Below are positions 1 through 37,589 of a stretch of DNA of 64,000 nucleotides, in pieces. Source of the stretch: an uncultured Gemmatimonadales bacterium (GTDB lineage: Bacteria; Gemmatimonadota; Gemmatimonadetes; Longimicrobiales; RSA9); the NCBI GenBank assembly GCA_963798085.1, contig CAWCRS010000005.1:704001-768000 (forward strand). Direction: 5' to 3'. The translations under genes were made by a program, and so were the position numbers. Position 1 is the stretch's first letter, and each line of letters begins with the position of its first letter. The notes under the pieces were generated by a model. It was given only the letters and a program-made list of their open reading frames with translations. It was not told where the DNA came from and did not search any database.

Positions 1-1803
1 CCAATCCGGGGCCGCGCTCTGCAGCAGCGCGCGGATCCCGCCGATCAGCTTCACGCGCGCCACATCGCCGCCTGCGGCGAGCGGCCACAGCACGACGTTC
101 CCGGCGCTGTCCTCGCCTGCCACGAACCGGCTGTCAGGACTCACCGTCATGGCGACGGTCGCGACCGGGATGATGGTGGCTTCGGCCAGCGCCAGACCGC
201 ACAGAATGGCAATGGCATGGCCGCCTGTGGCGAAGCAGACGCTGTCGCGGCCCGCCACCGGGGCGATGGAGTGCAGCGTGAGCGGCTTGCGCGCCACGCG
301 CTCGAGCGTGCTTTGACCCGGAGCGGTTCGCGTGCGCCACAGCTCGAGGCCCTGCCCGGCCGTAGCCAGCAGGTCGCCGTCGGGCGCGAAGGCCATGCCC
401 CATACCAGTCCGCCGATACCGGCCTGTGCTAATGCTTTGTCAGGCGCCATTCCCGTCCAGAGGCTCAGAGTCGAGCCGCCGGCCACGGCCACAACGTCGC
501 CATCCGGACTGAAGGCCACGCTGAAGATGGACGATGCCGCGTGCGCAAATGTCCCGAGCGGCTGCCGCGAGCGCGCGTCGTAGAGGTATGCGTCGTTGGC
601 ACCGTAGCTCGCGGTCGCCAGACGGCGGCCGTCCGGCGAATAAGCCGCGGACCACAGCATCGAGCCCTGGCGAGGAAGCCTTGCGAGGAGCGCGCCGCTG
701 GCGGGATCGACGATGCACGCCTCCAGCTGGCAGCCCACGAGCAGCCGAGCGCCATCGGGGCTGAACGCGAGTGTCGTCCGGCCTGCCGCGCTGCGTGCCG
801 CCGCAATGGTGCGCAGCAGGCGACCGCTCCCTGCATCCAGGATCTGCACGATGCTGGCGCCATCCGCTTCCGCGAGCAGCTTCCCGTCCGGACTGAACGC
901 CAGCACTCTGGCGTGTTCACTGGTGGCAGCGGATCCGCCATCATGCGGCAGCTGCTGGCGCCAGAGCGGCGCTCGGGGCGCGAGGCCCATCATTCGCATC
1001 AGAGAGATCTCGCCATTCACGGTAGGCGAGGCGCGCAATGAAGCCACCGCGAGGAGCGTCGCCCGCACCCAACCCTCGCCCGTCTCGTCGAACGCCAGTC
1101 GCGACTGCACTTCGTACTGTCCTGCTAACGCGAGATTGCGCTGGCGGATTGCCTCGGCGCGGGAGAGCAGGGCCCAGATCGCGAGGGCGCTCAGCGCCGT
1201 GATGATGCCGGTCACACCGGAGGCGACGATGCGCCGCAGCCTCGCCGCGCGTTTCTGCTCACGCTGCTCGACCTGGCCCCGGTCGACGCCGTGTTCCGCG
1301 TACAGGTCGGCCAGCAGCTTGAACCATGCTGGCGCGAACCGGCCCTTCTGCAGCCTGTCCGACTTCGCGCTGAAGCCGCGATAATCACTGGCCAGCGGCA
1401 TGGGCAGCCGGCGCAGCAGCTCCTCCGGAAACGCCTTGCGATCCGCGTCGGCCGGCCCGGCATCATTGTTGGGAACGCCGTCCACCAGCACCGCGATGAT
1501 GTGGTCGCTGCCGTGCAGCTCGGCGAAGCGCCGGATCTCATCGCTGACGTACGCGCTGGCTGCAGCGGCGGGCGAGCAGAGCACGATGAGCTTGGCGGAC
1601 GCGCGCAGGTTGCGCTCGAGCGACGCATGGTACTCGACGCCGGAGAAGTCGGACTCGTCACGGAACACGCGCAGCCGGCGCTGCGGCACGGCGAGGTCGC
1701 GGGGCGGGCGGTAGGCATCGAGGGCCGCCTCGAAGCGGCGCGCGAAATCCGCGTCGCGCCGGGAGTAGCTGATGAACGCGTCGTAACCGGATTCCTCTGT
1801 CAC
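1..1803 (-). CDS. TIR domain - transmembrane helix - WD40 beta-propeller protein (3' end runs off the window)
   Basis: Not in the ORF track because it has no stop in the window. My translation from GTG 1803: VTEESGYDAFISYSRRDADFARRF...RVFRDESDF...KLIVLCSPAAAASAYVSDEIRRF (TIR). Then RAARLRR-IVASGVTGIITALSALAIWALL (TM) and repeated AFSPDG/AYSPDG/AFAPDG WD40 blades. The start overlaps the upstream TGA (GTGA). Confidence 0.9.
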   Translation of the reverse strand, partial: MTEESGYDAFISYSRRDADFARRFEAALDAYRPPRDLAVPQRRLRVFRDESDFSGVEYHASLERNLRASAKLIVLCSPAAAASAYVSDEIRRFAELHGSDHIIAVLVDGVPNNDAGPADADRKAFPEELLRRLPMPLASDYRGFSAKSDRLQKGRFAPAWFKLLADLYAEHGVDRGQVEQREQKRAARLRRIVASGVTGIITALSALAIWALLSRAEAIRQRNLALAGQYEVQSRLAFDETGEGWVRATLLAVASLRASPTVNGEISLMRMMGLAPRAPLWRQQLPHDGGSAATSEHARVLAFSPDGKLLAEADGASIVQILDAGSGRLLRTIAAARSAAGRTTLAFSPDGARLLVGCQLEACIVDPASGALLARLPRQGSMLWSAAYSPDGRRLATASYGANDAYLYDARSRQPLGTFAHAASSIFSVAFSPDGDVVAVAGGSTLSLWTGMAPDKALAQAGIGGLVWGMAFAPDGDLLATAGQGLELWRTRTAPGQSTLERVARKPLTLHSIAPVAGRDSVCFATGGHAIAILCGLALAEATIIPVATVAMTVSPDSRFVAGEDSAGNVVLWPLAAGGDVARVKLIGGIRALLQSAAPDW

Positions 1804-4241: not shown

Positions 4242-7200
4242 TCATTCTCCCATCAGTGTCGCCAGTTCGCTGCGGATCTCGCGGATCGCTTCGATCAGCG
4301 ACTGCCGCTGACGCTGCCGTTCCGCAGCGCCCGTCTTTGCCGCCCCGCCGTCACCCTCGCCATCCGTTGCGACCGGCTCGGGCGGTGCGCCCGCCGCCGC
4401 TCGGCCGAGTACGTCGGTGAGCCAGTCCAGGTGTTCCAGCACACTGCGCATCTTGCGCGGCGAGCCGCCCCGCTGCCAGGCTCGCCTGTAACCGGCTGTT
4501 ATCGTGGCGGGGACCGCGATCTGCAGGCTGGCCATGCCCTGGATCAGCATGACTTCCGGTTCCGCCGCCAGCTGCCAGAAGTCGGCGAATTTTTCCTCGG
4601 CCTTGCGCGCGGCGGCCCGGATGCGTTCGCCCTCGCCGCTCCAGTCCGGCGGCTGCACGTCGAGCAGACCATGGGCCTGCAGCACCGCACACGCGCTCAG
4701 CCAGTTGAGCGCCGGGTAGGCATCGAGGCCCCTGGCCAGACGGTCCGCATTCTGGTAATAGCGCATCATGCGGCGCAGCGCCGTCACCCACTCGTCAAGC
4801 TCGAGCAGTGCGGTGAGCCGCTTCTGCGCGGAGCCGAAGAGCGCCAGTCGCTCCGAGGTGAACACATCCGCATGCATGCGTGCTTCGGTGAGCCGGCCCG
4901 GAGGCAGCGCATCGAGGTCGCTGATGGCGCCGCGGATTTCCCGGGTGGCTGCCACGTGGTCTTCGTGCCGGCGGCCCGAGGCCAGATAGGTGCGGAAGGC
5001 GATGCGCGAGCGCAGGTTGGCGGCCTGCTCGAGTTCCCGGATCGAGATCTCGGCCACCGTGGCAGACCGGGCCGCGTCATAACACCGTATTGCCTGGTCG
5101 AAACAGTCCAGCTCGCGGTAGGCCCTGGCAAACGCCGTCAGCACGCTCGCGTCGGCGAGCCATTCCGCGCGGTTGTCGCGCACCCACGCCTCGATGCGTC
5201 TGACGCCCGCGTCCGGCTTTTCGGCGCCGTTCCGCTGCGCCAATGTCTCCGCGTCCTGGGCAATGTTGTGAAGCTCCACGATGACTTCGCTGCGCGCGGC
5301 AAAGCCCGCGACGGTCGGTTCCCCCTCGTACTCGTCCTTCGCCATGTCGAGGCGGAAGCCCGGATCGCCGTAACACTGGTACGCGCCCCAGGTGTTCACC
5401 GCGGGATGCTCGCGATACGTCGTTTCGCGCGCCTCCTTCACCGCTTCGCCGAAATGACGCCCGCTCAGCAATACGCGGTAGAAGGTGGTGGCGAACGTGA
5501 TCGCGGCGTCGTCGTCTACGGCCCAGCCCGCGGCAATGACGGCGCGCACGCCCATGCGAATGAACTGCGCCGCGATGTTGGCCGCCAGGCGATGGCGCAT
5601 TCTGCGCTGGTCGGCCTCCGTCCCCTGGTCCTTCTCGTCCGTGCGCCCGAGGTGGCAGCAGTTGACGAAGACCAGTTCGGGCACCGCCCGCATCTTCTCG
5701 ATTTCCGCGGGCGTCAGCAGGGTGTAGTTGGGGCCGATCACCATGCCGCTGACCTTGCGCGTCACCGGCGTGTCCTCAGGCGTCCTCGCCTCGCGCACCG
5801 TGATTTCGTACTCGTGCAGGCCGTGCGCGGCAAAGTGCAGGATGCGATAGTCGCGCGCGAACAACTGCCCGACGACATCCTGTGCACTCGGTCGCGAAAG
5901 ATAGGTAACACTGAGTTTCTTCTCCTGCAGCAGCGCGTTCACCGCCTCCGCTTCCCGCTGTGCCCCCTTGAGCTCCGGCAATTCGCTGGGCGGGTCGCCC
6001 ACGACGAAGGCGTTCTTCACCGTGACGGTGCCCGGCCGTTCGCGGAACGTGTCCACCAGGAGATTGCGCACCAGCCCCGTGCGCACGGCAATGGGCAGCC
6101 CCTGACCGGAGCGTCGGTCCTCCATCAGCTCCCACGGGAAGCGTGCGGACGCCTCGTCCACCGCCAGCACCAGATCATTCTGGTCAGGCGCGTACTCCTT
6201 GAGCGCGTTGGGTACGAGCAGCTCGAACAGCGCCCCCGCCGTAACCGGATCGGGTCTTGGTAATGCGATGGCGCTGCTGACGAAGCTGTCGATCAGCTGC
6301 TTCTGCGTCGGCTCGAGGTAGGATTCCGCGCGCGCGCGTTGCGTGAGGTTGCGAAACTCGAGGGCGCCATCCTCCAGCCTCTCGGTGACCTGGATGTGGT
6401 TCCACCAGCGACCTTCTTCCTCGAAGCGGACGCGCCGACGACCGCCGGACATGATCTCCAGCGCGGGCATCGCCACGATGTGCCCGGTGTAGCGCGCGTC
6501 CGACTGCAGGCGCTGCAATGCGCTCACGGCCTGCAGCGCGATGTCTTCGTACAGCTCGATGAACTGCAGCTGCTGGATTCTGACACGCTTCATTTTCTGT
6601 GCACTGCCCAACCGGTCGCGTGCGGCCGTCACGCCGGCGACAATCGCGCGCACGGAATCTTCGACCGGCATGCCGCCGCGGCCGGAGCCGATCAGCAGCG
6701 CCGCGACGCCCACCGACATTGGTCGTGTCGCGGTGTAGTCTCCCTCCAGCTCCACCAGCTTGGACGCGAAGGCGAGGGTACCGTGCAGCACGGTGCGCTC
6801 GAGCGTGCCGGGCGCCAGACTGCCAGGCTTGCCCAGCCCCACGACCAGCGCTCCGTGCGCGCCGCTGCCGTCGTTGCGCAGGAATATCCCCAATGTGCCG
6901 ATCGCATCGGCATAGAGATCCAGCCGCTGATGCTCCGTCAGCAGACCCTCGAGGCGCTGGTCGAGCGCCAGTTCGGCGCCGGCAATCGTGTCGCCCTGGT
7001 AGTGCCCCACCATGACGGGATAGCGGGCAAACGCGAGATTGCCGTGCGCGATGGTGACAGTCAGCGGTTCCGTGCTGTCCACGGGAGCAATGCGTACCGC
7101 GTCTCCCATCAGCGCGACGGCCTCGAGGTCCGCCTGCTCGGGGAACGCCGTCACTTCGTCATCGGGCAGTACGAACTCGCGTGGCGCACCGCGATCCGCG

Positions 7201-9693
7201 GCCGGCGGCTGCTGCGGCAGCTCGTTCGTGTCACCGCGCTCGAGCAGCGCCTGGATGGCGCCGAACCAGCGCTGCACATTCGCCATGTCACCGTGCTTCA
7301 CGGGCATGTAGAAGGTGGGCACGCCCTCCAGCAGGCCCAGGCTCCAGGGCACGGTGCCGTCACCCTGTGACGTGGCCATGAATTCGATGCTGGCGCCACT
7401 CGTGCGATAGCGGAAGGGCGTGGCCGGCGCACCACCGGCCACGTACACCATGTGCCGGGCATCGACGGAATCCGGCGATTCCAGCAGCTGGCGAGTCGCG
7501 CGCGCGGCCTGCAGCACGGCTGCCGAGGGCAGCGCCTTCGTGTGTCGCGCATCAATGTCGAGTGTGCGCCAGCCGGCTTCCGTGAACAGGTCGTTATCAG
7601 GATCGGCGGGCAGCATCTCGATCAGCCCGGCAAACGCCGCCACCGTCTGCAGCAGCTGCTGCTCGTTGCTCTTCAGGTCGATGAGCGAGAGGATGCGTGT
7701 GAGACGATCGCGGCCCAGCAGCAGCCGGGGCACCACCCAGGCGCCGCGATTCGGTGTTCCCAGCATCACCAGGCGGCTGGCATCGCGCTCGACCACGCGG
7801 CCCCAGAGCGCCGGGTACTTCGCGATCATGGTGCGCGCCACCAGTCCGCCCATCGAGTGCGCCAGGATGCGGATGGGCTGCCGCGTATCGCGCAGCGCGT
7901 CATCGACGGCGCGGGCCAGCGCATCCGCGGACTCCGCGACCGTGCGCCGCCAGTCATAGGGGAACTCGAGCACATCGTGCGAGGCGGCGAGGTACTGGCT
8001 CAGGCGGGCGTACGAGCGTGCCACCAGCGCCGTCGCCTTCACATCGGTTCTGGCGATGGCGAGGTTGTCGAAGCGGCCCGCCGCAATGCGGAAGAGATCG
8101 ATCCAGACCCGGTCGCCTGCAACCTGCAGCTCCGAGCCCATGATGCCGGGCAGCAGGAACACAACAGGCCGTTTGCCGGTGATCGCGGGCGCCGCCGCGC
8201 CTGCATCGCGCCGGCGCAGCTCGTCGGCGGTCTGCGTGGTGATGGGCTCGAAGCCTGCGTCGCTGTTATCACCGCGCACCAGGCCGAGCAGCATCTTCTC
8301 GGCGGTGGACGATGTCCTGAAATAGTGAAAGTGATTGATGTCCTTGCTGTTGTCGAAGTAGAGCCGGGCCTTGCCATCCTTGCGCGGTGCACCGCCCACC
8401 ATGGCGCGCGTGGGCACCACCAGATCGTGGTCTTCCGCGTAGAAGAGATCGGTCACCAGCGCGGTCAAATGGTGCCAGATCGAGCCGCCCGCCAGGTCGC
8501 CGGCGATCACCGACAGGTCCGCGCTCACGGTCACATCGCGCCGGTTCAGCACCGCGATGAGCGGCGATTCCGGCATCTGCGCTTCCAGACCCGGCAGTGT
8601 GGCCGGGTTCGCGCGCTCCTTGATGAGCGCAGGAATCAGCGCATTGAGGAAGCTGACAACGGGATGCGCCGGCAGCACGAGACGGATGCCGTTCAGCAGA
8701 ATGGAGAGGTAGAGATCGAGCCGGCCGGAGGCGAGCGTGGTGCCGTTCGCGGGACACGCGACACGCACGAAGCGCTCGATCACAGGACGCCGGTCCGCGA
8801 GCAGGTCGGACAGCGTCTTCAGGTCCGCCGCCTGCTGCAGGTAGATCGGCTCGCGCGCAGCGCCCGCCTGTTGCGCGGCGCGCTCGAAGAAACCGGTCTC
8901 GACCGCATTCGAACGGATCGCCATCGCGCATGGAGCGGCAGAGCAGTTCACCGACAATGCCGCCGCGCGAATGACTGACCATGTGAACGCGCGCGCCGCG
9001 CGGCAGGTGCTCGACGAGGTCAATGGCGTTGCGAACCGGGCTTTCGCTCAGCGTGGCGTGCTGCAGTGCGAAGATGCGATCACCGTACCTCGCCTTGAGC
9101 CGCTCCCAGACATTGTCCGGCAGCTTGCCGAAGCTGCCGTCATAGCTCGACGCGGTGCCGTGCAGGAACAGCAATGACACGCCGTTATCATTCAGCGTAT
9201 CGTCGATTCGCTCGGCGAAGGATGACTGCGTGGCGCAGCGGTACAGTCCGGGGCCGCTGCTGCCGCCCGTGTCGAGCAGATGGCGTTCGACGCGCGCCGC
9301 GACCGCGGTGGCGCCGACCTCCGCGATCTTCTTGCGCACATCCAGCTTGCGCAGTGTCTGAATCACCCACTTGCCGAAGCCGCGCGAAGGCGCTCCGATG
9401 GGCAGCACGGCCGGCATGAACAGCGAGCCATCGCGTGCCACCTGCTGGCCGCCCGCCTGGAACAGCTCGCGCAGCGTGCTCCCCGCCAGCCACAGCTGGA
9501 TCCCGCCATCCAGCGAAATCTCGGCGACGTCGCTGTCCTCCAGGTCCACCGGAATCGTGGACGCGTCTCGCGCCTCACCCAGGCGGTATTCCTTGTCCGT
9601 GCCAATGTCGACGAGATCGCCGAACTCGCCCGGATCGAGTGTCCTTGCGCCGGTGCTGACTTCGGTGCCGCGGAAGAGCAGTCTGGTGGTCAT
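4242..9693 (-). CDS. giant multidomain protein: two alpha/beta-hydrolase (lipase-like) domains + CHAT caspase-like protease + TPR-like C-terminus; frameshift at ~8908
   Basis: Joins ORFs 8269..9774 and 4242..9023 by removing one base (PF-gaat-AV becomes PFDAVETG). Motifs: LHGTASS/SHSRGG; PGIMGSEL/AHSMGG/GDGTVP; FPWELM; HFAAHG and FVNCCHLG (CHAT His/Cys dyad); WGAYQCYGDP. About 1816 aa when corrected. Confidence 0.88.
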
Positions 9694-27707: not shown

Positions 27708-30313
27708 TCAGCCGCACTCACTGTAGCCGCAGGCCAGACACTTCATGCAGCCTTCCATGTACTGCAGCTCGGACTTGCAGTCCGGGCAGGTGCCGAGGAA
27801 GTGTCTGGCCCGGGTCGTAGCCATAATCGAAATCGATCTGCGTACCGGCCTGTGTGCCGTCATCACCCGCAGTCCCGGCGTAACCCGGCACACGGGCCGG
27901 TGCGCCGGCGGACGGACCGGATGTCGTCGCCTGCGGCATGGGAAGTTCCTGCTGCACACCTTCCTTCTCGCGCTCGTGCTGGATCAGCGCCTGCGCAATG
28001 GCATCCGGCACCGATAGCACCTTGTTAGGGCCGACGCCCACGGCGCGGTCGCAGGAGATGCCGCGCATCTGACGGTAGATCTCCGACATGGGAATGCCGC
28101 TGCGCAGCCCCAGCGAGATCAGCCGGCCGATGGCCTCGACATCCGCCATGGCGGCGCCGCCGGCCTTGCCCAGGGTGGCGAAGACCTCGAAGGGCCGGCC
28201 CGTCTCGTCCTCGTTCACGGTCACGTAGAGATCGCCCAGCGGGCTGGGCATGCGGCGCGTCATGCCGGTGAGCAGCGCCGGCCGCTGCCGCTTCATGCGG
28301 CGACGCTGATTCCTCGCCTGCTCGTCGACCAGCGCCCGCTTCAGCTCCTCGTTGTCGTGCATGATGCGGTGCAGTTGCTCGCGCGCGTCCGCCAGCTGCG
28401 CCTCGAGATCCACTTCCAGTGCGCTCTTCTCCGGCGTACCCGCCACTTCCTTCGCCGTCTTGCCCGTGGACAACACCTGCATGGGCCGCGAGGCATCGCG
28501 GTAGACGGTCACGCCCTTGCAGCGCAGGTCGTACGCCATGACGTAGATCTCGCGCACATCCTGCTCGCCGGCTTCGCGCGCGAAATTGCAGGTCTTGCTG
28601 ATGGCGCTGTCGACAAACTCCTGGAACGCCGCCTGCGTACGGATGTGCCACTCGGGCGTCACATCGTGCGCGGTGACGAACACGCGCTGCACGTCCGCCG
28701 GCACTTCCTCGAAGTGAATGTGCCCTTCCCCCGCGATGCGCGTCATCAGGTCGTCGCTGTACCAGCCCTGCTGCCTCGCCACGCGCACAAACTCGCGATT
28801 CACATCGGGCATGAGCACGCCCGCCTGGTTGCGCATGAAGGCGACGGCGAAGAGCGGCTCAATGCCGCCCGAGCAGTCCGCGAAGATCGAGATCGTGCCC
28901 GTGGGGGCGACCGTCGTGACATTGCAGTTGCGCAGGCGACGCGCGGGACGCACGCGCTCACCCCGTGCGTCCCGCGCGCACGTCTCGTCCGGTCCCCAGA
29001 ATGCTGCGCTCCCATTCCGGGAACACGCCGCGCTTCTCCGCCAGCCGCTCGCTCTCGCGCTTGCTCTCCTCGTCCACGAACTGCATCAGCGCGCGCGCCA
29101 CCTCGATCGCTTCATGGCTGTTGTAGGGCACACCGACGCGCACCAGCAGATCGGCGTAGCCCATGATGCCCAGGCCAATGCGGCGGATGCGCTGCGCCAG
29201 ATCCGTGATCTCGTCGAGCGGGTAGTTGTTGGCGTCGATGACGTTGTCCAGGAAATGCGTACTGGTGGCAACCACCTGGCGCAGCCCGTCCCAGTCGATG
29301 CGTTCCCGCCAGGGCAAGGCGTCGGCCACATCACTGCGCGCGAAGAGCCCGACGTTGACGCTGCCCAGATTGCACACGTCATAGGGCAGCAGCGGCTGTT
29401 CGCCGCACGGATTCGTCGCCTCGTAGCTGCCCAGGTGCGGCACCGGGTTGTAGCGGTTCGCGGCGTCGATGAAGAACACGCCCGGCTCACCCGTCGCCCA
29501 GGCGCCGTGCACGATCAGGTCGAAGATCTCGCGCGCGTCCTCCTGTCCGGCCACATCGCCGTTGCGCGGGCTGATCAGATCGTACTTCGTGCCCGCCTTC
29601 ACCGCCTCCATGAACGCATCGGTGACCGCTACCGAGATATTGAAGTTGGTGATCTGGCTGACATCGAGTTTGCAGGTAATGAAATCGCGGATATCCGGAT
29701 GGTCGACGCGCAGGATGCCCATGTTGGCGCCGCGACGGGTGCCGCCCTGCTTCACGACCTCCGTGGAGGCATCGTACAGACGCATGAAGGAAACCGGCCC
29801 GCTCGCCACACCCATCGTCGAGCGCACCACATCGCCTGCCGGACGCAGCCGGCTGAAGCCGAACCCTGTGCCCCCGCCCGACTGGTGCACCAGCGCCATC
29901 GCCTTGAGCGTGTCGTAAATGCCATCGTGCTCGTTGGAGATGGCGTCCGTCACGGGCAGCACGAAACAGGCGGACAGCTGCCCCAGCGGCCGCCCCGCGT
30001 TCATGAGCGTGGGGGAATTGGGCTCGAACAGGCGCTGCGTCATCAGCCGGTAGAACTCGCGCGCCAGCTGCTCAATGCCGCCATCACTCGCGCCGTAGCG
30101 AGCGTCTTCTTCGGCAATGACGTGAGCGACGCGCCAGAACATCTGCTCCGGTTCCTCCACCGGCCGGCCGCGCTCGTCCTTCTTCAGGTACCGCCGGGCC
30201 AGCACGATGCGCGCGTTCTCCGACAGGTCGGCCGACGGCAGATCGTCCGGCAGCAGCTCGCGACGACGGAGTACCTCGGGTGAAACCGAAACGGGCGTGA
30301 TGCTGGCGTTCAT
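27708..30313 (-). CDS. nrdJ: class II (adenosylcobalamin-dependent) ribonucleotide reductase with TSCPD-like and Zn-ribbon C-terminus; frameshifts at ~29000 and ~27801
   Basis: PNSPTLMNAG..GQLSACFVL, QSGGGTGF, QGGTRRGANM, EATNPCGEQPL...CNLGS, TVAPTGTIS, SAISKT, KGVTVYRD, terminal CPDC...EGCMKCLACGYSECG. Three ORF pieces join with two single-base corrections (~867 aa). Confidence 0.93.
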
Positions 30314-30408
30314 CGGCGACCTCGACTCGTGCTTTCCGGCAAGAACGTTGAACGGACGTGAGGACCGTCCGTATCCGATTCGTGGTTGTAGGCTTGACCG
30401 CGCTGCCG

Positions 30409-30460
30409 ACCCAACATCTTGTGGGGTGCGTATCATAGCCAATCCAGATCTTGTGGTCAA
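30409..30460 (-). promoter_or_regulatory. nrdJ promoter TTGACC-N17-TATGAT overlapped by tandem NrdR boxes
   Basis: Minus-strand -35 TTGACC (30460-30455) and -10 TATGAT (30437-30432). Boxes ACCCAACATCTTGTGG (30409-30424) and AATCCAGATCTTGTGG (30441-30456), 32 bp apart, match the NrdR-box consensus. Confidence 0.85.
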
Positions 30461-30977: not shown

Positions 30978-32387
30978 CTAGTGCCCGCCCTTCGACTCCG
31001 CCAGCTGCTTCACCAGATCACCCACCACGTTCTTCGCGTCACCAAAAAGCATCCACGTCTTGTCGTCGTAGTACAGCTCGTTGTCGATGCCCGCGAAGCC
31101 CGGGTTCTTGCTGCGCTTGATGGCGAACACCGTGCGCGCCCGGTCCGCATCAATGATGGGCATGCCGTAAATGGGCGTGGTCTTGGCGTAGCGCGCTGCG
31201 GGATTGACCACGTCATTGGCGCCGATCACCAGCGCCACGTCGCACTGCGGCATCTCGGGATTGATGTCGTCCATCTCGACCAGGTCGGTGTACGGCACAT
31301 CCGATTCCGCCAGCAGCACGTTCATGTGGCCCGGCATGCGACCCGCCACCGGGTGTATCGCGAACTTCACGGTTATGCCACGCTTGCGCAGCTGCTCGTA
31401 CAGCTCCTTCACACGCTGCTGCGCGCGCGCCACCGCCATGCCGTAGCCCGGGATGATGACGACGAAGTTCGCCTGCTCCAGGATCTGCGCCGCGCCTTCC
31501 ACGGTCTCGGCCTTGTAGTTCTTCGTGCTCGTGCCCGCCTCCAGCGCCTGCACCTTGCCGAATGCGCCGAACAGCACGTTGACGAACGAGCGGTTCATCG
31601 CCTTGCACATGATGATCGAGAGGATGAGACCGCTGGAACCATCCAGTGCGCCCGCCGTGATCAGCAGTTTGTTGTCCAGCACGAAGCCCATGGCCACAGC
31701 GGAGAGTCCGGCATAGGAGTTCAGGATCGAGATCACCGTGGGCATGTCGGCGCCGCCAATGGGGATGATCAGCAGTACGCCGAAGATCAGCGAGATCACG
31801 ATGATGATGGGGAACAGCGTGGTGCCTGAGGCGGCGGTCGGGTTGACCACCAGCAGCGCGCCCAGTCCGAAGGCGGCGACCAGCATGCCGATGTTGGTGA
31901 AGTTCTGCAGCGGATAGGTGACCGGGCGCTGCGGAATCCATTTCACCTCCTGCAGCTTGCCGGCCGCCATGAGGCTGCCCGTGAAGGTGAGGAAGCCGAG
32001 GATGATTTCCGCGACAATCGCGCCTGTGCGAAACGACGTCAGGTTGCCCGGACCCTCGCTCCGCCACAGATAGAACTTGGCGGTTCCCACCAGGCCCGCG
32101 GCGAGTCCGCCGAAAGCGTGCGAGAGCGCCGTCCGCTGCGGCACCGCCGTGAGCGGCACGAGGGACAGCGGCACGCCCACGAGCACGCCCACCGCGATCG
32201 CAATGATGATCCAGCCGTGGTGCACGACCTCGGGCTGCATCCATGTCGCCAGGATGGCGATGCTCATGGCGACGACACCGGCGTACACCGCGCGCCTCGC
32301 CGTGCCGGGTGTGTTCATCCAGTGCAGCGAGAAAACGAACAGGATGGTGGCGACAATGTAGGCCGCCTGGGCGAGGGCGTGAATCAT
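30978..32387 (-). CDS. pntB: NAD(P) transhydrogenase subunit beta
   Basis: HAFGGLAA, TFTGSLMAAGKLQ, IGGADMP...LNSYAG, PGYGMAVA, HPVAGRMPGHMNVLLAE, GANDVVNPAA, KRS..GFAGIDNEL. ATGA overlap with the upstream gene. Confidence 0.96.
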   Translation of the reverse strand: MIHALAQAAYIVATILFVFSLHWMNTPGTARRAVYAGVVAMSIAILATWMQPEVVHHGWIIIAIAVGVLVGVPLSLVPLTAVPQRTALSHAFGGLAAGLVGTAKFYLWRSEGPGNLTSFRTGAIVAEIILGFLTFTGSLMAAGKLQEVKWIPQRPVTYPLQNFTNIGMLVAAFGLGALLVVNPTAASGTTLFPIIIVISLIFGVLLIIPIGGADMPTVISILNSYAGLSAVAMGFVLDNKLLITAGALDGSSGLILSIIMCKAMNRSFVNVLFGAFGKVQALEAGTSTKNYKAETVEGAAQILEQANFVVIIPGYGMAVARAQQRVKELYEQLRKRGITVKFAIHPVAGRMPGHMNVLLAESDVPYTDLVEMDDINPEMPQCDVALVIGANDVVNPAARYAKTTPIYGMPIIDADRARTVFAIKRSKNPGFAGIDNELYYDDKTWMLFGDAKNVVGDLVKQLAESKGGH

Positions 32388-32900
32388 GATTCTGCCCCGG
32401 GCTTCGTGGACTTGAACATCTTCAGCATGCGGTCCGTGATGAGGAAGCCGCTCACAATGTTCGTTACCGATGCGAAGAGCGCGACCGCACCCAGCATCCG
32501 GATCTCGAGCGGGTAGTCGGCGCCCGTCACGATAATGGAACCCACCACCGCGATCGCCGAGAATGGCGTTGGTGAGCGACATCAGCGGCGTATGCAGGAG
32601 TCGCGACACCCGGCGGATCACGCCCAGCCCGATGAAGCTGGAGAGGATGAAGACGAAGAGCAGCGACCAGTAGTCCGGCGCGGGCGGATTTTCGGCCTGC
32701 GCGCCTGCCGCCTCACCGCCACCGACCGCCGGCGCCGCCGGCGCCGCCACCGCGCCCGGCGCGGTCAGCGCCATGGTGACAAGTTGTCGAGGAGCCGGGT
32801 CTGCTGCCCCGCCGGTGAGTGAGGTGCCCGCCGCAAGCGAGGCTGCCGGCAGGCTCGTTGTCAGCGCAACGCACAACGCGAGCAACGTACGGGTTGACAA
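32384..32900 (-). CDS. pntA: NAD(P) transhydrogenase subunit alpha part 2 (membrane part) with N-terminal extension; frameshift at ~32562
   Basis: LHTPLMSLTNAI-(extra base)-SAIAVVGSI...NIVSGFLITDRMLKMF; TTG start after AAGGAG. The apparent fusion to pntB in the ORF track results from the frameshift. Confidence 0.88.
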
Positions 32901-33715: not shown

Positions 33716-35530
33716 CTACGCCGCGCGCGTGGACCGAGGCTTGATGCCCGTAATGCCCCACTCCAGACGATCCAGCGCGTCCTCGCTCAGGCCACCGCGC
33801 AGGTCGACCCAGGTGAAACTGCGCAGGAACAGCGGCAGCACCGGCCTGGCCGGCGCACCCGGCAGCAGCACGGGAATCACGGGCATGCGCCTCGCCACGC
33901 ACTGCTCGAGGCAGGCGCGCAGCTCCGGCTCCTCCCAGGGGCCGACGCCGTGCTCCCCGAAAATGATGAGCGCACTGCGCACTGTGGCGATGGCCTGCTC
34001 GATCCCTTCCTGCCACGGCCGGCCGGGCGCCAGCTCCCAGACGTCCAGCCACACGCGCAGCCGGCGCTGCCGCAGATGCTCGCCCAGCTGCAGCACGGCA
34101 TCGCGCTCCTGCCCGTTGTAGCTCACGAACACGTCGAACGGCTCGGCCACCGGTGCTGGTGCTTCGCCCGCGGCCGCATCCGGCGGCGCGGGCGCCGCCA
34201 CCCGCGAGAGCGCCGGGCGGGCGCTGCGCCGCGCTCCCTGCAGCGTCGCGCCACCGGCTAACAGAATCGTCAGGAGGATGGTGGCCGCTACCGGGTAGTC
34301 AATGTCCGCCCACACGCGCCCCAGCCGCATGGCCAGTACGGCGCCCAGCACGAGAACCGCGATCATGATGCCGGCACTGCGCAGCAGCGCGGGGGTGCCC
34401 CCGCCGCCCGCCTGGACCACCGTGAGCAGCCAGCATACTGCGAACACGAGCGTCAGCAGGAGCCAGAGCGGCAGGTGTGTGATGAGGCTGCCCGTACGCA
34501 GGGCCTGCGCCGCCCATGTCTGGATGGTGACGCCGGGGAGCGCGCCCCAGGGCGTGTCCCAGGTGTCGCCCGGGCGGTAGGCGCCAACGAAAACGAAACG
34601 GTCGCGCAGCAGCGCCAGCGTGGAGTCGTCGGGCAGACCGTCGATCTGCACGGGTGTGCTGGCGGGGGGAACGAACTGCACGAGACCGTTCGCGGGAACG
34701 GCAACGGGTGCGCCCGCCAGCAATGTGGCGGCACGCACGGCCATTGAAGGCGACGACGGGTCGTCGGGCCTCGACGCCAGCACATTCCGGATTCGGCCAT
34801 CCGCCTCGCGCACGCCTATCACGCTGGCCAGGTTCTCGTCGTGCAGACAGGGTTGCAGCGTGGACGGCAGCGCCTCGCGCACCCAGGCACTGCCGCGCTG
34901 CCGCAGTTCGTACGCGAACACCACCGGCAGGCCCGCCTGACGCGCGCGCTCGACCAGCACGCAGAACACGCGATCGAAGCTCAATGTATCGCGCAGCGCG
35001 AAGTCGAAGATCATGCCCCTGGCGTGCTGCTCGATCCCCTGGCTGATCAGCCCCGCCAGCGTGCGCCTGGCTTCGGCGACGGGGGTGCCCGCAAACGAAG
35101 GCAGCAGCACGATCGCCACGTCGCCACCGCCGCGCGCCGGCGGCGCCAGCCCGTAATGCCAGTCGCCCAGGCGGTTGAGGCCCAGGAAATTGCCGGGCGT
35201 GGCATCCTCATAACCCGTGATTATCGCGCGCCGGCCATCCAGAATGCGTGTGCCCGCGGCAATGGCGAAGAACGTGAAATACGCGAGGAAGAAGAGCAGG
35301 AATCCGCCGCCCAGCAGCAGGCGTCGTTCGCGCAGGAGCGGCCGGCCCAGCAGTACGAGCGCTGCGGCCAGCGGCGCCAGCAGCGCGAGCACGGCCAGCG
35401 GTCGCTGGGAAAAGGAGCCCAGCGCGCGCGTCAGCAGGTAGGCGCCCGACCCCGCGGGCAGCGCAATGAGCAGCGCGATCCAGCGCTCCCGCCGCAGCGC
35501 GCGTTGGCGGCCCGCGTCAGCGAGCGCCAT
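33716..35530 (-). CDS. membrane receptor: 3 TM - CHASE2 - 3 TM - TIR domain
   Basis: CHASE2 motifs RRTLAGLI...ARGMIFDF, EADGRIRNV, LRDRFVFVGA...DTWDTPWGALPGVTIQ, followed by three hydrophobic helices. C-terminal FDVFVSYN...LRVWLDVWELAPG.PWQ.GIE.AI...GPWEEPEL...PVIPVLL...TWVDLR (TIR). Confidence 0.88.
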   Translation of the reverse strand: MALADAGRQRALRRERWIALLIALPAGSGAYLLTRALGSFSQRPLAVLALLAPLAAALVLLGRPLLRERRLLLGGGFLLFFLAYFTFFAIAAGTRILDGRRAIITGYEDATPGNFLGLNRLGDWHYGLAPPARGGGDVAIVLLPSFAGTPVAEARRTLAGLISQGIEQHARGMIFDFALRDTLSFDRVFCVLVERARQAGLPVVFAYELRQRGSAWVREALPSTLQPCLHDENLASVIGVREADGRIRNVLASRPDDPSSPSMAVRAATLLAGAPVAVPANGLVQFVPPASTPVQIDGLPDDSTLALLRDRFVFVGAYRPGDTWDTPWGALPGVTIQTWAAQALRTGSLITHLPLWLLLTLVFAVCWLLTVVQAGGGGTPALLRSAGIMIAVLVLGAVLAMRLGRVWADIDYPVAATILLTILLAGGATLQGARRSARPALSRVAAPAPPDAAAGEAPAPVAEPFDVFVSYNGQERDAVLQLGEHLRQRRLRVWLDVWELAPGRPWQEGIEQAIATVRSALIIFGEHGVGPWEEPELRACLEQCVARRMPVIPVLLPGAPARPVLPLFLRSFTWVDLRGGLSEDALDRLEWGITGIKPRSTRAA

Positions 35531-36602
35531 CCGAGCCGCCCACGCGCGAGCGCGTGGCCGTGGCCGATGTAGTCCTGCTGAGGGTGTCGGACGAACCCGT
35601 CTTCACAGCGGCGCGTGACGCCGCCGTCGTCGCTTTCCCGGCCGTCGCCTTCTTCGCGGTATCCGGCGCCGCCGAGCCGGCCGTGCCGGCGTTCGCCGCA
35701 CGCAGTGCTGCGGTGGTCGTGCCCGCGGCGCTGCCGCCACTCCGCATGCGCCCGACCCTGAGGATCGCCGGATCAATGTTGTAGCGTCTCGCGGCGTCGT
35801 CGGTGGTCACGCCTGCCCGCCGCAGGTTGAAGTTCGCGTGCTCGGGTACGCGGTAGCGGATCTGCGCCCTGGCCAGGGCCACCCGCCGCTCGGTATCGCC
35901 CGGGTTGGCCAGCACCTCGTAGTGCAGCACGCTGAGACTGTCGTACGAGGCGCTTCGGTTGTTGACGATAACACCCTGTTTCAACCCCTCGTCCATGTCG
36001 AAGTTGGCGTAGATCCCGGCCCAGCGCTTCAGCTGTTGCGGTGTGGTCCGGCCCAGTGATGGCCTGGCGCTGCGCGGACTCACGTCGAGGTTCATGCCCG
36101 GCCTCGCGGTGAGCGTGTCGCCGCTGCTCGTGCGTGCGGAAACCTCGCCGTCGAAGACGACAATGCGCGGCGCAATGCCGGCACTGTCGCGGCGCACAAT
36201 GATGGCGTACTGCGTACCATGACTGGTCAGGTTGACGGCGCCCACGGTCTGACCGGTCGGCTCTTCCGCGATCACGTTGGCATCGCCACTGAGCAGGTTC
36301 ATGTGACAGTGTCCTGCCGTGTCGGGCACATCAATGAAGAAGCGGAACGGCCCGCGCAGACGGTAGGTCGTCGACCCGGCTGGCATGCACAGCAGCTCGA
36401 GGTACGAGGTGTCTGCCGCGGTGAGCAGGTCACCGGGCTGCAGGTCGAGACCCGCAGTGGCGCGGATGGCGCGCGCTGCACCCAGCTGCTGTACGGCGAC
36501 CCGGCTGGGATCCGGGAACACCGCCTCGATCCTCGCCTGTGCCCTCGCGGCGGCGGGCGGCAGCGCGAGGAGCAACGCGATGGGGACTGCGCCTCGAATC
36601 AT
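35517..36602 (-). CDS. secreted FecR-domain-like protein with a TPR-like helix pair and an Ala/Thr/Lys-rich tail
   Basis: AGGAGG RBS; signal peptide ending ARA-Q; GLDLQPGDLLT...LELL...LLSG...HGTQYAI...IVVFDGEVS...LT..PG (FecR pattern); NPGDTERRVALARAQIR. Its stop overlaps the CHASE2-TIR start by 14 nt. Confidence 0.7.
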   Translation of the reverse strand: MIRGAVPIALLLALPPAAARAQARIEAVFPDPSRVAVQQLGAARAIRATAGLDLQPGDLLTAADTSYLELLCMPAGSTTYRLRGPFRFFIDVPDTAGHCHMNLLSGDANVIAEEPTGQTVGAVNLTSHGTQYAIIVRRDSAGIAPRIVVFDGEVSARTSSGDTLTARPGMNLDVSPRSARPSLGRTTPQQLKRWAGIYANFDMDEGLKQGVIVNNRSASYDSLSVLHYEVLANPGDTERRVALARAQIRYRVPEHANFNLRRAGVTTDDAARRYNIDPAILRVGRMRSGGSAAGTTTAALRAANAGTAGSAAPDTAKKATAGKATTAASRAAVKTGSSDTLSRTTSATATRSRVGGSDGAR

Positions 36603-36829: not shown

Positions 36830-37450
36830 TCAGCCGTCCGACTTGTTCCAGCTCACTTCCCGGTTGATCTCGCGTCCGCACACGGTGCCGACGACGGTGC
36901 GCTTGCCCACATCCGGCAGGCGAGTGGAAGTGATGTGGAAGTCGCACTCGCCGCTCTTGCCATTGGTCGCGCTCCACGTGAAGTGGCCGGACTTGGTGGC
37001 GGTCTGCGGGCCCACCGGCTGGCCGTTCTCGAAGTGGCGCGTGGCGTCGAAGCTGAAGGTGCCGTTCACGGTGCGTGTCACATCACCGCGTGCGTGCGCG
37101 CAGTCATTCCAGGCGCCACTGGCGGTCGCGTGATAATCCGCTATGCCCTGGTCGTTGCGCGTGCGCTCAATGCTGCCCTCCAGCGTGATGGTACCGCCCG
37201 CGGGGCAGTCATGAGAGCGCGAGAATGTGCGCGTGTCCGCGCCGGCAATCGAGAGACCGGCATCGAGGCCGAAGCCACCCAGCAGAATCTGGCTGAACAC
37301 GATCTGACCCGTCATGGCATCGGTGTCGAGCGCGACCGCCACGGCGTCATCCGTGGTCATTCCATCGGCCGGTCCCGTACTGTCGTTGCTGCACGCCGCG
37401 ACGGCCAGCAGGGCCGCAACCGCGGGCGCCATCCAATTGACGCTGCGCAT
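36830..37450 (-). CDS. hypothetical lipoprotein
   Basis: GGAGGAG RBS; LLAVAAC-SNDSTGP lipobox; beta-rich body with four Cys (CPAGG, WNDC, EC, VCGR). Confidence 0.8.
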   Translation of the reverse strand: MRSVNWMAPAVAALLAVAACSNDSTGPADGMTTDDAVAVALDTDAMTGQIVFSQILLGGFGLDAGLSIAGADTRTFSRSHDCPAGGTITLEGSIERTRNDQGIADYHATASGAWNDCAHARGDVTRTVNGTFSFDATRHFENGQPVGPQTATKSGHFTWSATNGKSGECDFHITSTRLPDVGKRTVVGTVCGREINREVSWNKSDG

Positions 37451-37589
37451 GATCTGCATCTCCTCCCATTCTTGCGGCCATCCCCGCCGCTGCTTCCGAG
37501 GCCCCGCTTTTTCGGGACCTTCACCGATACGGATGCCGGATGCGCCACGGCCGTTAAGTGCGGGCGCATTGTGTGGATAATCATGCCAT

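What the first reader, a model, noticed from the sequence alone, without database searches (positions are those of the whole stretch)
33716..36602. FecR-like protein + CHASE2-TIR: a Toll-like-receptor-style two-gene signalling module
Seen: two overlapping genes (14-nt overlap). One is a secreted FecR-pattern protein. The other has 3 TM, a CHASE2 domain, 3 TM and a C-terminal TIR domain that keeps the catalytic WxxxE (GPWEEPEL). Helix counting puts CHASE2 outside and TIR inside. Established: CHASE2 receptors normally end in an adenylate/guanylate cyclase, His kinase, Ser/Thr kinase or GGDEF domain and often lie beside FecR-domain genes. Bacterial TIRs are oligomerisation-activated NADases or signal makers (Thoeris, CBASS, Pycsar). 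Inference: a periplasmic or envelope cue relayed by the FecR-like partner clusters the TIR, causing NAD+ cleavage or a cyclic-ADPR-type signal. I know of no characterised CHASE2-TIR system.
Basis: partly seen in the sequence, partly recalled or inferred. Interest (0 to 1): 0.87.

Follow-up and report, generated by a model that had tools for sequence, protein, structure and literature searches.

The report
FecR partner plus CHASE2-TIR receptor
Two tightly linked bacterial genes encode an exported FecR-fold protein and a six-pass membrane receptor whose inner end is a probably NAD+-cleaving immune-type TIR domain instead of the usual cyclase or kinase, so a poorly understood outside-in sensing module appears to have been rewired to a self-defence-type output; this is untested.

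Summary
Window 35530-33716 (-) encodes 3TM-CHASE2-3TM-TIR (Pfam CHASE2 and TIR_2 above cut-off; W532/E536 invariant in 23 of 23 homologues). Window 36602-35517 (-) has no Pfam FecR hit, but its model has the FecR/PupR fold (Z 13). The genes overlap by 14 nt. The partner lay directly upstream in 11 of 11 full-length receptor loci from GTDB (Gemmatimonadota, Acidobacteriota), with no conserved third gene. New here: the TIR comes from the pool used by bacterial NLR-like proteins, and two sister loci keep partner and six-TM receptor with no cytoplasmic domain, so the TIR was probably added once to an older cassette. Best reading (about 45%): the partner gates receptor clustering and the TIR depletes NAD+. 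Binding, activity and a defence role are untested, and most loci are not in defence islands. FecR/CHASE2 pairs with cyclases or kinases are in print. A reversed TIR-TM-CHASE2 fusion is listed in supplementary tables of PMC8195603. This scan noted a different CHASE2-TIR (barrel partner, Verrucomicrobia) before. Verdict: new variant of a known kind.

The parts
35517..36602 (-). Partner gene, 361 aa: signal peptide (about 1-21), FecR/PupR-CJM-type beta domain (about 23-187), helical TPR-like region (about 188-285), Ala/Thr/Gly-rich disordered tail (about 290-361)
   Evidence: (pLDDT mostly >90 over about 21-280, about 40-50 in the tail)
36540..36602 (-). Predicted Sec signal peptide ending in A-x-A; the next residue, Q22, is Gln in 75 of 124 family members
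   Evidence: read from the sequence; no signal-peptide predictor was run
36213..36218 (-). Gly129-Thr130 of the partner, aligned with the 'GT' motif of canonical FecR-domain proteins; candidate self-cleavage site
   Evidence: alignment; T130 in 123 of 124, G129 in 72 of 124; that this is the FecR G181/T182 site is recalled, not tested
33716..35530 (-). Receptor gene, 604 aa: 3 TM - CHASE2 - 3 TM - linker - TIR
35249..35482 (-). N-terminal three-helix membrane segment (about residues 17-94), two helices more than in canonical CHASE2 receptors; also present in the TIR-less relatives
34475..35248 (-). CHASE2 domain (about 95-352), predicted periplasmic; C190 and C228 invariant in the 23 near homologues
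34220..34468 (-). Three C-terminal TM helices (355-437) typical of CHASE2 receptors
33737..34141 (-). TIR_2 domain (about 464-598) with W532-x-x-x-E536; the most conserved part (72% mean pairwise identity vs 53% for CHASE2)

Best explanation
A self-contained two-gene trans-envelope module with a catalytic TIR output. SHOWN: two co-oriented, tightly spaced genes that travel together; a FecR-fold partner with a signal peptide; a six-TM CHASE2 receptor; a TIR with an invariant catalytic Trp/Glu, drawn from the TIR pool of bacterial NLR-like proteins. INFERRED: the exported partner binds the periplasmic CHASE2 domain and sets the receptor's assembly state. Its constant core (FecR fold plus one TPR-like hairpin) would be the contact part. 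Its variable C-terminal part (TPRs, Ig-like domains, PPIase, or a mere tail as here) would meet the cue. I favour a restraint ('guard') arrangement: a protein cue, protease or envelope damage removes or refolds the partner, receptors cluster, the TIRs self-associate and hydrolyse NAD+, and the cell slows or dies. The opposite sign (partner plus ligand clusters the receptor) is not excluded. The cue is unknown.
For: Pairing: partner directly upstream in 11 of 11 full-length receptor loci, in 5 of 5 metagenome loci that extend past the partner (only one is long enough to show the TIR, and two look like the same protein), and in G948. Gaps are mostly within about -14 to +55 nt. In 401 genomes of the window's phylum, strong matches to receptor and partner fell in the same 2 genomes. 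WxxxE is present in 34 of 34 CHASE2-linked TIRs scored, and the TIR is the most conserved region. The nearest non-CHASE2 TIRs (about 43-64% identity) sit on TIR-NB-ARC-TPR, TIR-NACHT-FGE-sulfatase, CHAT/SIR2, LRR-Roc-COR and EAD11 proteins. No third gene is shared across lineages in 17 loci, so no dedicated signal reader is linked. Patchy distribution and variable insertion sites, one copy between IS elements next to an integrase. TIR NADases depend on self-association (passages, PMC12847820). CHASE2 has been fused to conflict effectors before: caspase-CHASE2 (passages, PMC3501461, PMC8195603) and TIR-TM-CHASE2 beside LRR-Roc-COR genes (supplement tables). In FecR signalling, dissociation of a self-cleaved periplasmic fragment is the trigger (passages, PMC12036975).
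Against: No activity or binding data. Neighbourhoods are mostly housekeeping or generic genes. Of 47 neighbour proteins scanned against PADLOC, only L027 showed a plausible defence gene (PDC-S06, split by an IS, plus a Uma2-type nuclease); the other hits were generic kinase, subtilase, TPR, ABC-ATPase or TIR matches. Neither gene matches a curated defence model over its length. TIR-less cassettes persist intact in two genomes, so the module can be kept without this output. Characterised FecR/CHASE2 relatives do ordinary regulation (cAMP, two-component), not killing. A Glu motif does not distinguish bulk NADase from signal synthesis.
Confidence: 0.45

Rival explanations
1. Same receptor, but the TIR makes a low-flux ADPR-derived second messenger (cADPR isomer or conjugate) read by an unlinked protein. 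It would be a like-for-like replacement of the adenylate cyclase of NsrA/CyaK-type modules, used for regulation rather than killing.
For: Sister FecR-TPR + CHASE2-cyclase pairs occur in the same phylum (L138, L139). Loci are mostly outside defence islands. Many bacterial TIRs make such signals (passages, 10.64898/2025.12.03.692087, PMC12847820).
Against: No conserved reader gene nearby, although the cassette moves between lineages as two genes. The nearest TIR relatives are on NLR-like proteins.
Confidence: 0.22
2. The six-helix membrane core is itself the effector or signalling unit (for example it perturbs the membrane, or acts in trans on another receptor). The TIR is a later accessory.
For: TIR-less receptors in G439 and G1230 (55% identical to each other, intact, partner directly upstream, no shared third gene) and P0025 lie outside the TIR clade (SH-aLRT 96) but inside the six-TM clade (100) in a quick tree. 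TM1-3 is as conserved (58%) as CHASE2 (53%).
Against: Only 3 TIR-less sequences were seen, and P0025 has no context. The two genomic ones differ in composition, which can distort the tree. They could be decoys or have lost another output. The TIR is under the strongest constraint where present.
Confidence: 0.13
3. TLR-style scaffold: the TIR nucleates other cytoplasmic TIR proteins without a catalytic role.
For: The genome has 17 TIR_2 matches. Top structural matches include MyD88, MAL and Hydra TRR-2, tied with SARM1/TIR-1.
Against: The catalytic Trp/Glu is invariant. A separate TIR gene lies close by in only 2 of the paired loci scanned (L013, L094). The other 16 TIRs of this genome look unlike this subfamily by eye.
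Confidence: 0.1
4. The two proteins are co-inherited but do not bind directly; a third, unlinked envelope protein (for example a TonB-dependent transducer or barrel) is needed.
For: FecR-type domains of anti-sigma factors contact outer-membrane transducers (passages, PMC7186176). NsrA-type partners carry their own barrel, which this partner lacks.
Against: The PupR contact with its transducer needs the STN subdomain as well (PMC7186176), and the structural match here ends near PupR residue 251, before most of that subdomain. The pairing is strict, with no third gene.
Confidence: 0.1

Closest known systems
NsrA with CHASE2 cyclases CyaK/CyaD1/CyaD2 of Sinorhizobium meliloti, and the FecR-protein + CHASE2-cyclase clusters of Campylobacterota (passages of PMC13001267, PMC9239204)
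   Same: CHASE2 inner-membrane receptor coupled to an envelope protein (FecR-domain in the Campylobacterota clusters; for NsrA that domain is recalled); protein-type cue; outside-in signalling.
   Different: Output is a TIR, not a cyclase. The partner is small and has no beta-barrel. The receptor has two extra N-terminal helices and belongs to a separate CHASE2 clade.
LysM-FecR protein + CHASE2 histidine kinase 'BiofilmReg' operons (Burkholderia; Pseudomonas PA4035 type; passages of PMC5192318)
   Same: Secreted FecR-domain protein encoded immediately upstream of a CHASE2-3TM receptor; a two-gene minimal form exists.
   Different: No LysM, no kinase, no response regulator; TIR output.
Cyanobacterial caspase-CHASE2 and TIR-TM-CHASE2-3TM proteins (passages of PMC3501461 and PMC8195603; the TIR form only in supplementary tables of PMC8195603)
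   Same: CHASE2 fused to a cytoplasmic conflict-type effector, including TIR.
   Different: There the effector is N-terminal with one TM before CHASE2, no FecR partner is listed, and the TIR form is not discussed in the main text. Here the TIR is C-terminal and a dedicated partner is constant.
Oligomerisation-activated TIR NADases (SARM1, AbTir, BtTir, SpbK) and TIRs of bacterial NLR-like STAND proteins
   Same: TIR fold (Z about 14-15 to SARM1/TIR-1), catalytic WxxxE, nearest sequence relatives on NLR-like proteins.
   Different: Membrane-anchored behind a periplasmic sensor; no STAND, SAVED, STING or APAZ switch.
FecR/PupR/FoxR anti-sigma factors (cell-surface signalling)
   Same: Periplasmic beta-domain fold (Z 13.2 and 12.9, rmsd about 3 A over about 135 residues); GT motif.
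   Different: No cytoplasmic anti-sigma domain or membrane anchor, no linked ECF sigma factor or conserved TonB transducer; a helical region follows instead of STN.

Membership tests
CHASE2 receptors | PF05226 above gathering score | tested here: met
   37.5 bits vs 26.3; homologues carry PF05226
CHASE2 receptors | Domain followed by three TM helices, extracytoplasmic | tested here: met
   sidedness inferred from charge bias, helix count and conserved cysteines, not measured
CHASE2 receptors | Usual output (cyclase, His kinase, Ser/Thr kinase, GGDEF/HD-GYP) | tested here: not met
   Only TIR_2/TIR found; 26 of 26 distant CHASE2 hits from the Thermoanaerobaculia sample that were scanned were kinases
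Catalytic TIR domains | TIR fold and PF13676 | tested here: met
Catalytic TIR domains | Catalytic Glu in WxxxE | tested here: met
   E536 aligns with the Glu of BtTir/AbTir; 23 of 23; 34 of 34
Catalytic TIR domains | NAD+ cleavage on self-association | not testable with these tools
   needs assay
FecR domain (PF04773) | Pfam profile match | tested here: not met
   no hit for the window protein at E<=1; 16 of 124 relatives hit weakly, best 9e-5
FecR domain (PF04773) | FecR/PupR periplasmic fold | tested here: met
   Foldseek E 1e-5; VIA Z 13.2 and 12.9, next hit 5.4
FecR-type anti-sigma factors | Cytoplasmic anti-sigma domain, TM anchor, linked ECF sigma and transducer | tested here: not met
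   signal peptide then mature domain; no conserved linked gene
NsrA-CyaK type system | Outer-membrane barrel partner and adenylate cyclase | tested here: not met
   partner family median about 400 aa, no barrel among the top Pfam families; no cyclase
Thoeris | Adjacent signal-reading effector gene | tested here: not met
   no conserved third gene in 17 loci; ThcB4 model 19.8 bits vs cut-off 220
Anti-phage defence system | Defence-island context | tested here: inconclusive
   1 locus with PADLOC candidate genes, 1 in an IS/integrase island, 1 beside a DUF6036 nucleotidyltransferase; the rest not
Anti-phage defence system | Protection against phage | not testable with these tools
   needs assay
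Toll-like receptors | LRR ectodomain, single TM helix, non-catalytic TIR recruiting adaptors | tested here: not met
   CHASE2 ectodomain, six TM helices, catalytic Glu kept

The most novel reading that the evidence does not exclude
A dedicated bacterial 'guarded' surface receptor for envelope attack. An exported, possibly self-cleaving FecR-fold protein with swappable bait domains holds a six-helix CHASE2 receptor in check. The ancestral cassette acted through its membrane core alone. One lineage captured an NLR-type TIR, so that a periplasmic event (phage injection, predator or T6SS contact, protease) triggers NAD+ destruction inside. This would be outside-in innate immunity built from the FecR/CHASE2 chassis, and it would show that the CHASE2 ligand is the FecR-fold protein itself.
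Probability: 0.2. Interest if true: 0.88.

Novelty: new variant of a known kind. Interest (0 to 1): 0.64.

Why it matters
What CHASE2 domains bind is a long-open question, and the known FecR/CHASE2 modules are large or have diffuse outputs. This cassette is minimal (two genes, no barrel, no third gene), has an output that is easy to score (NAD+ loss, E536A control) and has natural TIR-less sisters as controls. It therefore makes the question directly testable. If the TIR acts in defence, it would be a bacterial receptor that senses outside the inner membrane and answers with TIR chemistry; the characterised bacterial TIR systems in the papers I read sense in the cytoplasm.

Tried and rejected
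Frameshift as the cause of the partner's low-complexity tail: the other two frames encode no TPR-like continuation, and close homologues end at 291-295 aa, so loss of the C-terminal TPRs looks natural in this subclade. Reads could not check it: one run with share 0.07 covered only fragments; no RNA holder listed. Longer, fused forms of the partner: none by word search (weak evidence); longer multi-domain relatives did appear. Viral contigs: no relative. Sigma-70 promoter scan: none; terminator-like hits lie inside the genes. STALD search in the own genome was uninformative because the control did not ring. No solved CHASE2 structure surfaced, but the TIR filled the lists, so this is inconclusive. 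Apparent exception to pairing, L009: a 99% identical IS-linked partial copy of L008, dropped from the count. L029 starts inside the receptor and could not be tested. L006 (receptor) and L014 (partner) are split by frameshifts in their assemblies and were counted as pairs. TIR tree: 7 rows dropped for failing a motif cut (one CHASE2-linked, L027), and duplicate loci left out; it is the quick tree with weak support (87, one non-CHASE2 row inside). Literature: CHASE2+TIR gave 2 papers, CHASE2+'Toll interleukin' 0, FecR+'TIR domain' 1, judged unrelated from the listing, CHASE2 since 2019 gave 47 with 40 listed; none describes this pair.
Full report
Observation. The 604-aa receptor hits Pfam CHASE2 (155-369, 37.5 bits, cut-off 26.3) and TIR_2 (467-589, 85.2 bits). 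Its model has three helices before and three after CHASE2. Charge bias over 23 homologues mostly fits N-terminus in, CHASE2 out, TIR in, and CHASE2 carries an invariant cysteine pair. Topology is inferred, not measured. The TIR motif W532-E-E-P-E536 aligns with the catalytic Trp/Glu of BtTir and AbTir. The window has frameshifts elsewhere, but these two frames are intact.

The receptor is a family. The word search returned 22 homologues with the same two Pfam domains at 44-59% identity, plus one CHASE2-only relative, P0025 (only 8000 candidates were scored). W532, E533 and E536 are invariant in 23 of 23. Mean pairwise identity is 72% in the TIR, 58% in TM1-3, 53% in CHASE2, 54% in TM4-6 and 20% in the linker. 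The ESM Atlas holds an 80-member cluster with CHASE2 99% and TIR_2 99%, and two similar TIR clusters of 87 and 108 members (a lead only). The architecture may therefore be wider than I sampled.

The partner. It has no Pfam, NCBIfam or PADLOC hit. A profile search found 273 clusters at E<=0.001 (best 150 listed, 124 aligned). A confident model matches the anti-sigma factors BDI_1681 and PupR (Foldseek E about 1e-5; Z 13.2 and 12.9 against 5.4 for the next hit). So 'FecR-like' is right by fold. It has a signal peptide instead of an anti-sigma domain, a cysteine pair in 114 and 115 of 124 members, and Thr130 in 123 of 124. G129-T130 aligns with the GT motif of canonical FecR-domain proteins. FecR self-cleaves between G181 and T182 (passages, PMC12036975); that it is the same position is my recall. 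One paper calls the corresponding FoxR residues non-conserved (passages, PMC7186176). Behind a constant core, the C-terminal part varies: TPRs in 21 of 124, carboxypeptidase-regulatory or Ig-like domains in 10 each, others rarely. The window's subclade has lost it.

Pairing and context. Of 75 GTDB loci, 11 carry a full-length receptor, and all 11 have the partner directly upstream: five Gemmatimonadota and six Acidobacteriota by record title. Of 7 metagenome loci found with the partner, 5 extend past it and all 5 continue into the receptor. G948 adds another. The cassette is rare: strong matches in 2 of 401 genomes of the window's phylum (including this genome) and 3 of 381 in the class of G401 (including the centre genome). 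No third gene is shared across lineages in 17 loci. Neighbours are mostly housekeeping or generic. One locus has PADLOC candidate genes, one lies between IS elements beside an integrase, one lies beside a DUF6036 nucleotidyltransferase, and two have another TIR gene nearby. This is weak support for mobility and no clear support for defence islands.

Where the parts came from. The other TIRs caught sit on NLR-like and conflict-type proteins: TIR-NB-ARC-TPR, TIR-NACHT-FGE-sulfatase, TIR-CHAT-SIR2, LRR-Roc-COR-TIR, EAD11-TIR and nSTAND1. In a quick tree the 34 CHASE2-linked TIRs fall in one weakly supported group with one outsider. A wider search found the same six-TM receptor with no cytoplasmic domain in G439 and G1230. 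These are 55% identical to each other, each with a partner homologue directly upstream (2 of 251 genomes in that order). Rooted on canonical CHASE2 kinases and cyclases, the six-TM receptors form one group (100), the TIR-bearing ones a subgroup (96), and the three TIR-less ones lie outside it (quick tree, composition warning for two rows). The simplest reading is one gain of an NLR-type TIR onto an older partner + six-TM cassette. More distant partner relatives are FecR-TPR proteins of about 1150-1200 aa beside CHASE2 cyclases (L138, L139), which ties the cassette to the NsrA/CyaK kind.

Mechanism. Shown: anatomy, pairing and constraint on the catalytic motif. Inferred: direct binding of partner to CHASE2, control of clustering, and NAD+ cleavage. 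I put 0.45 on direct NAD+ depletion gated by the partner, because no reader gene travels with the cassette and the TIR's kin are NLR-type effectors. I put 0.22 on a second-messenger output, 0.13 on the membrane core being the real effector, 0.10 on a scaffold TIR (the genome has 17 TIR_2 matches) and 0.10 on an indirect link. I lean to a restraint role for the partner, by analogy with FecR fragment dissociation and from the gene order, but the sign is open.

What is in print. I read passages only (no whole texts) of PMC8195603, PMC5192318, PMC9239204, PMC13001267, PMC7075850, 10.64898/2025.12.03.692087, PMC7186176, PMC12036975, PMC5498481, PMC3501461, PMC12847820, 10.64898/2026.10.19.760177 and PMC11350192. 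I searched supplements of PMC8195603, PMC7159879 and PMC7075850; one file was cut when stored, one CHASE2 hit each in files 1 and 3 was not viewed, and bioRxiv supplements are closed. FecR-protein + CHASE2 pairs with kinases or cyclases are described. Caspase-CHASE2 fusions are described. The supplements of PMC8195603 list TIR+TM+CHASE2+3TM in two cyanobacteria as neighbours of LRR-Roc-COR genes, and TIR+DrHyd before nSTAND1-TM-CHASE2. So a TIR-CHASE2 fusion is not new to print, although there the TIR is N-terminal, it is not discussed, and no FecR partner is listed. Searches found no description of a C-terminal TIR on CHASE2 or of this pair; most subscription journals are not covered. This scan earlier noted a Verrucomicrobia CHASE2-TIR with a FecR-TPR-barrel partner, which I did not test. 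If it holds, CHASE2 and TIR have been joined at least three times.

Verdict. A real, conserved, undescribed two-gene cassette: a new variant of FecR/CHASE2 trans-envelope signalling with a TIR output. It works like NsrA/CyaK on the outside and probably like a TIR NADase on the inside, but it is a member of neither NsrA/CyaK, Thoeris nor the TLR family. Interest 0.64.

Noticed in passing
L137:6653-9664 (G439) and L182:9469-13513 (G1230): Partner + six-TM CHASE2 receptor with no cytoplasmic domain. The G439 partner carries a PPIase domain. The G1230 partner is 901 aa with repeated TPR-like blocks, and by ORF inspection the pair sits inside a type IV pilus gene cluster.
   Followed up: partly
window 27718-30460 and 30978-32900: The ribonucleotide reductase is split over two frames and the transhydrogenase alpha-2/beta region is merged by a frameshift; these look like assembly indels.
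   Followed up: no
window 1-1803 (-) and 4242-9023 (-): A TIR-WD40 protein and a large lipase-like/CHAT/caspase/TPR-S protein lie at the window's left end, about 25-30 kb from the cassette.
   Followed up: no
G000, several contigs: 17 TIR_2 matches in one 6.2-Mb genome, but only one CHASE2 match.
   Followed up: partly
L008 and L009 (G403): The cassette lies between inverted IS3-type elements near a phage-type integrase; a 99% identical partial copy with the same IS elements lies about 1.17 Mb away.
   Followed up: partly
proteins P0079, P0100, P0070: Partner relatives with two or three tandem copies of the FecR-like unit.
   Followed up: no
L138:8873-11044 and L139:2640-6260: STIG1-like Cys-rich repeat proteins lie directly upstream of FecR-TPR + CHASE2-cyclase pairs in two Acidobacteriota genomes.
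   Followed up: no
window 36830-37453 (-): A predicted lipoprotein without a Pfam family on the same strand upstream of the partner; not shared with other loci.
   Followed up: partly
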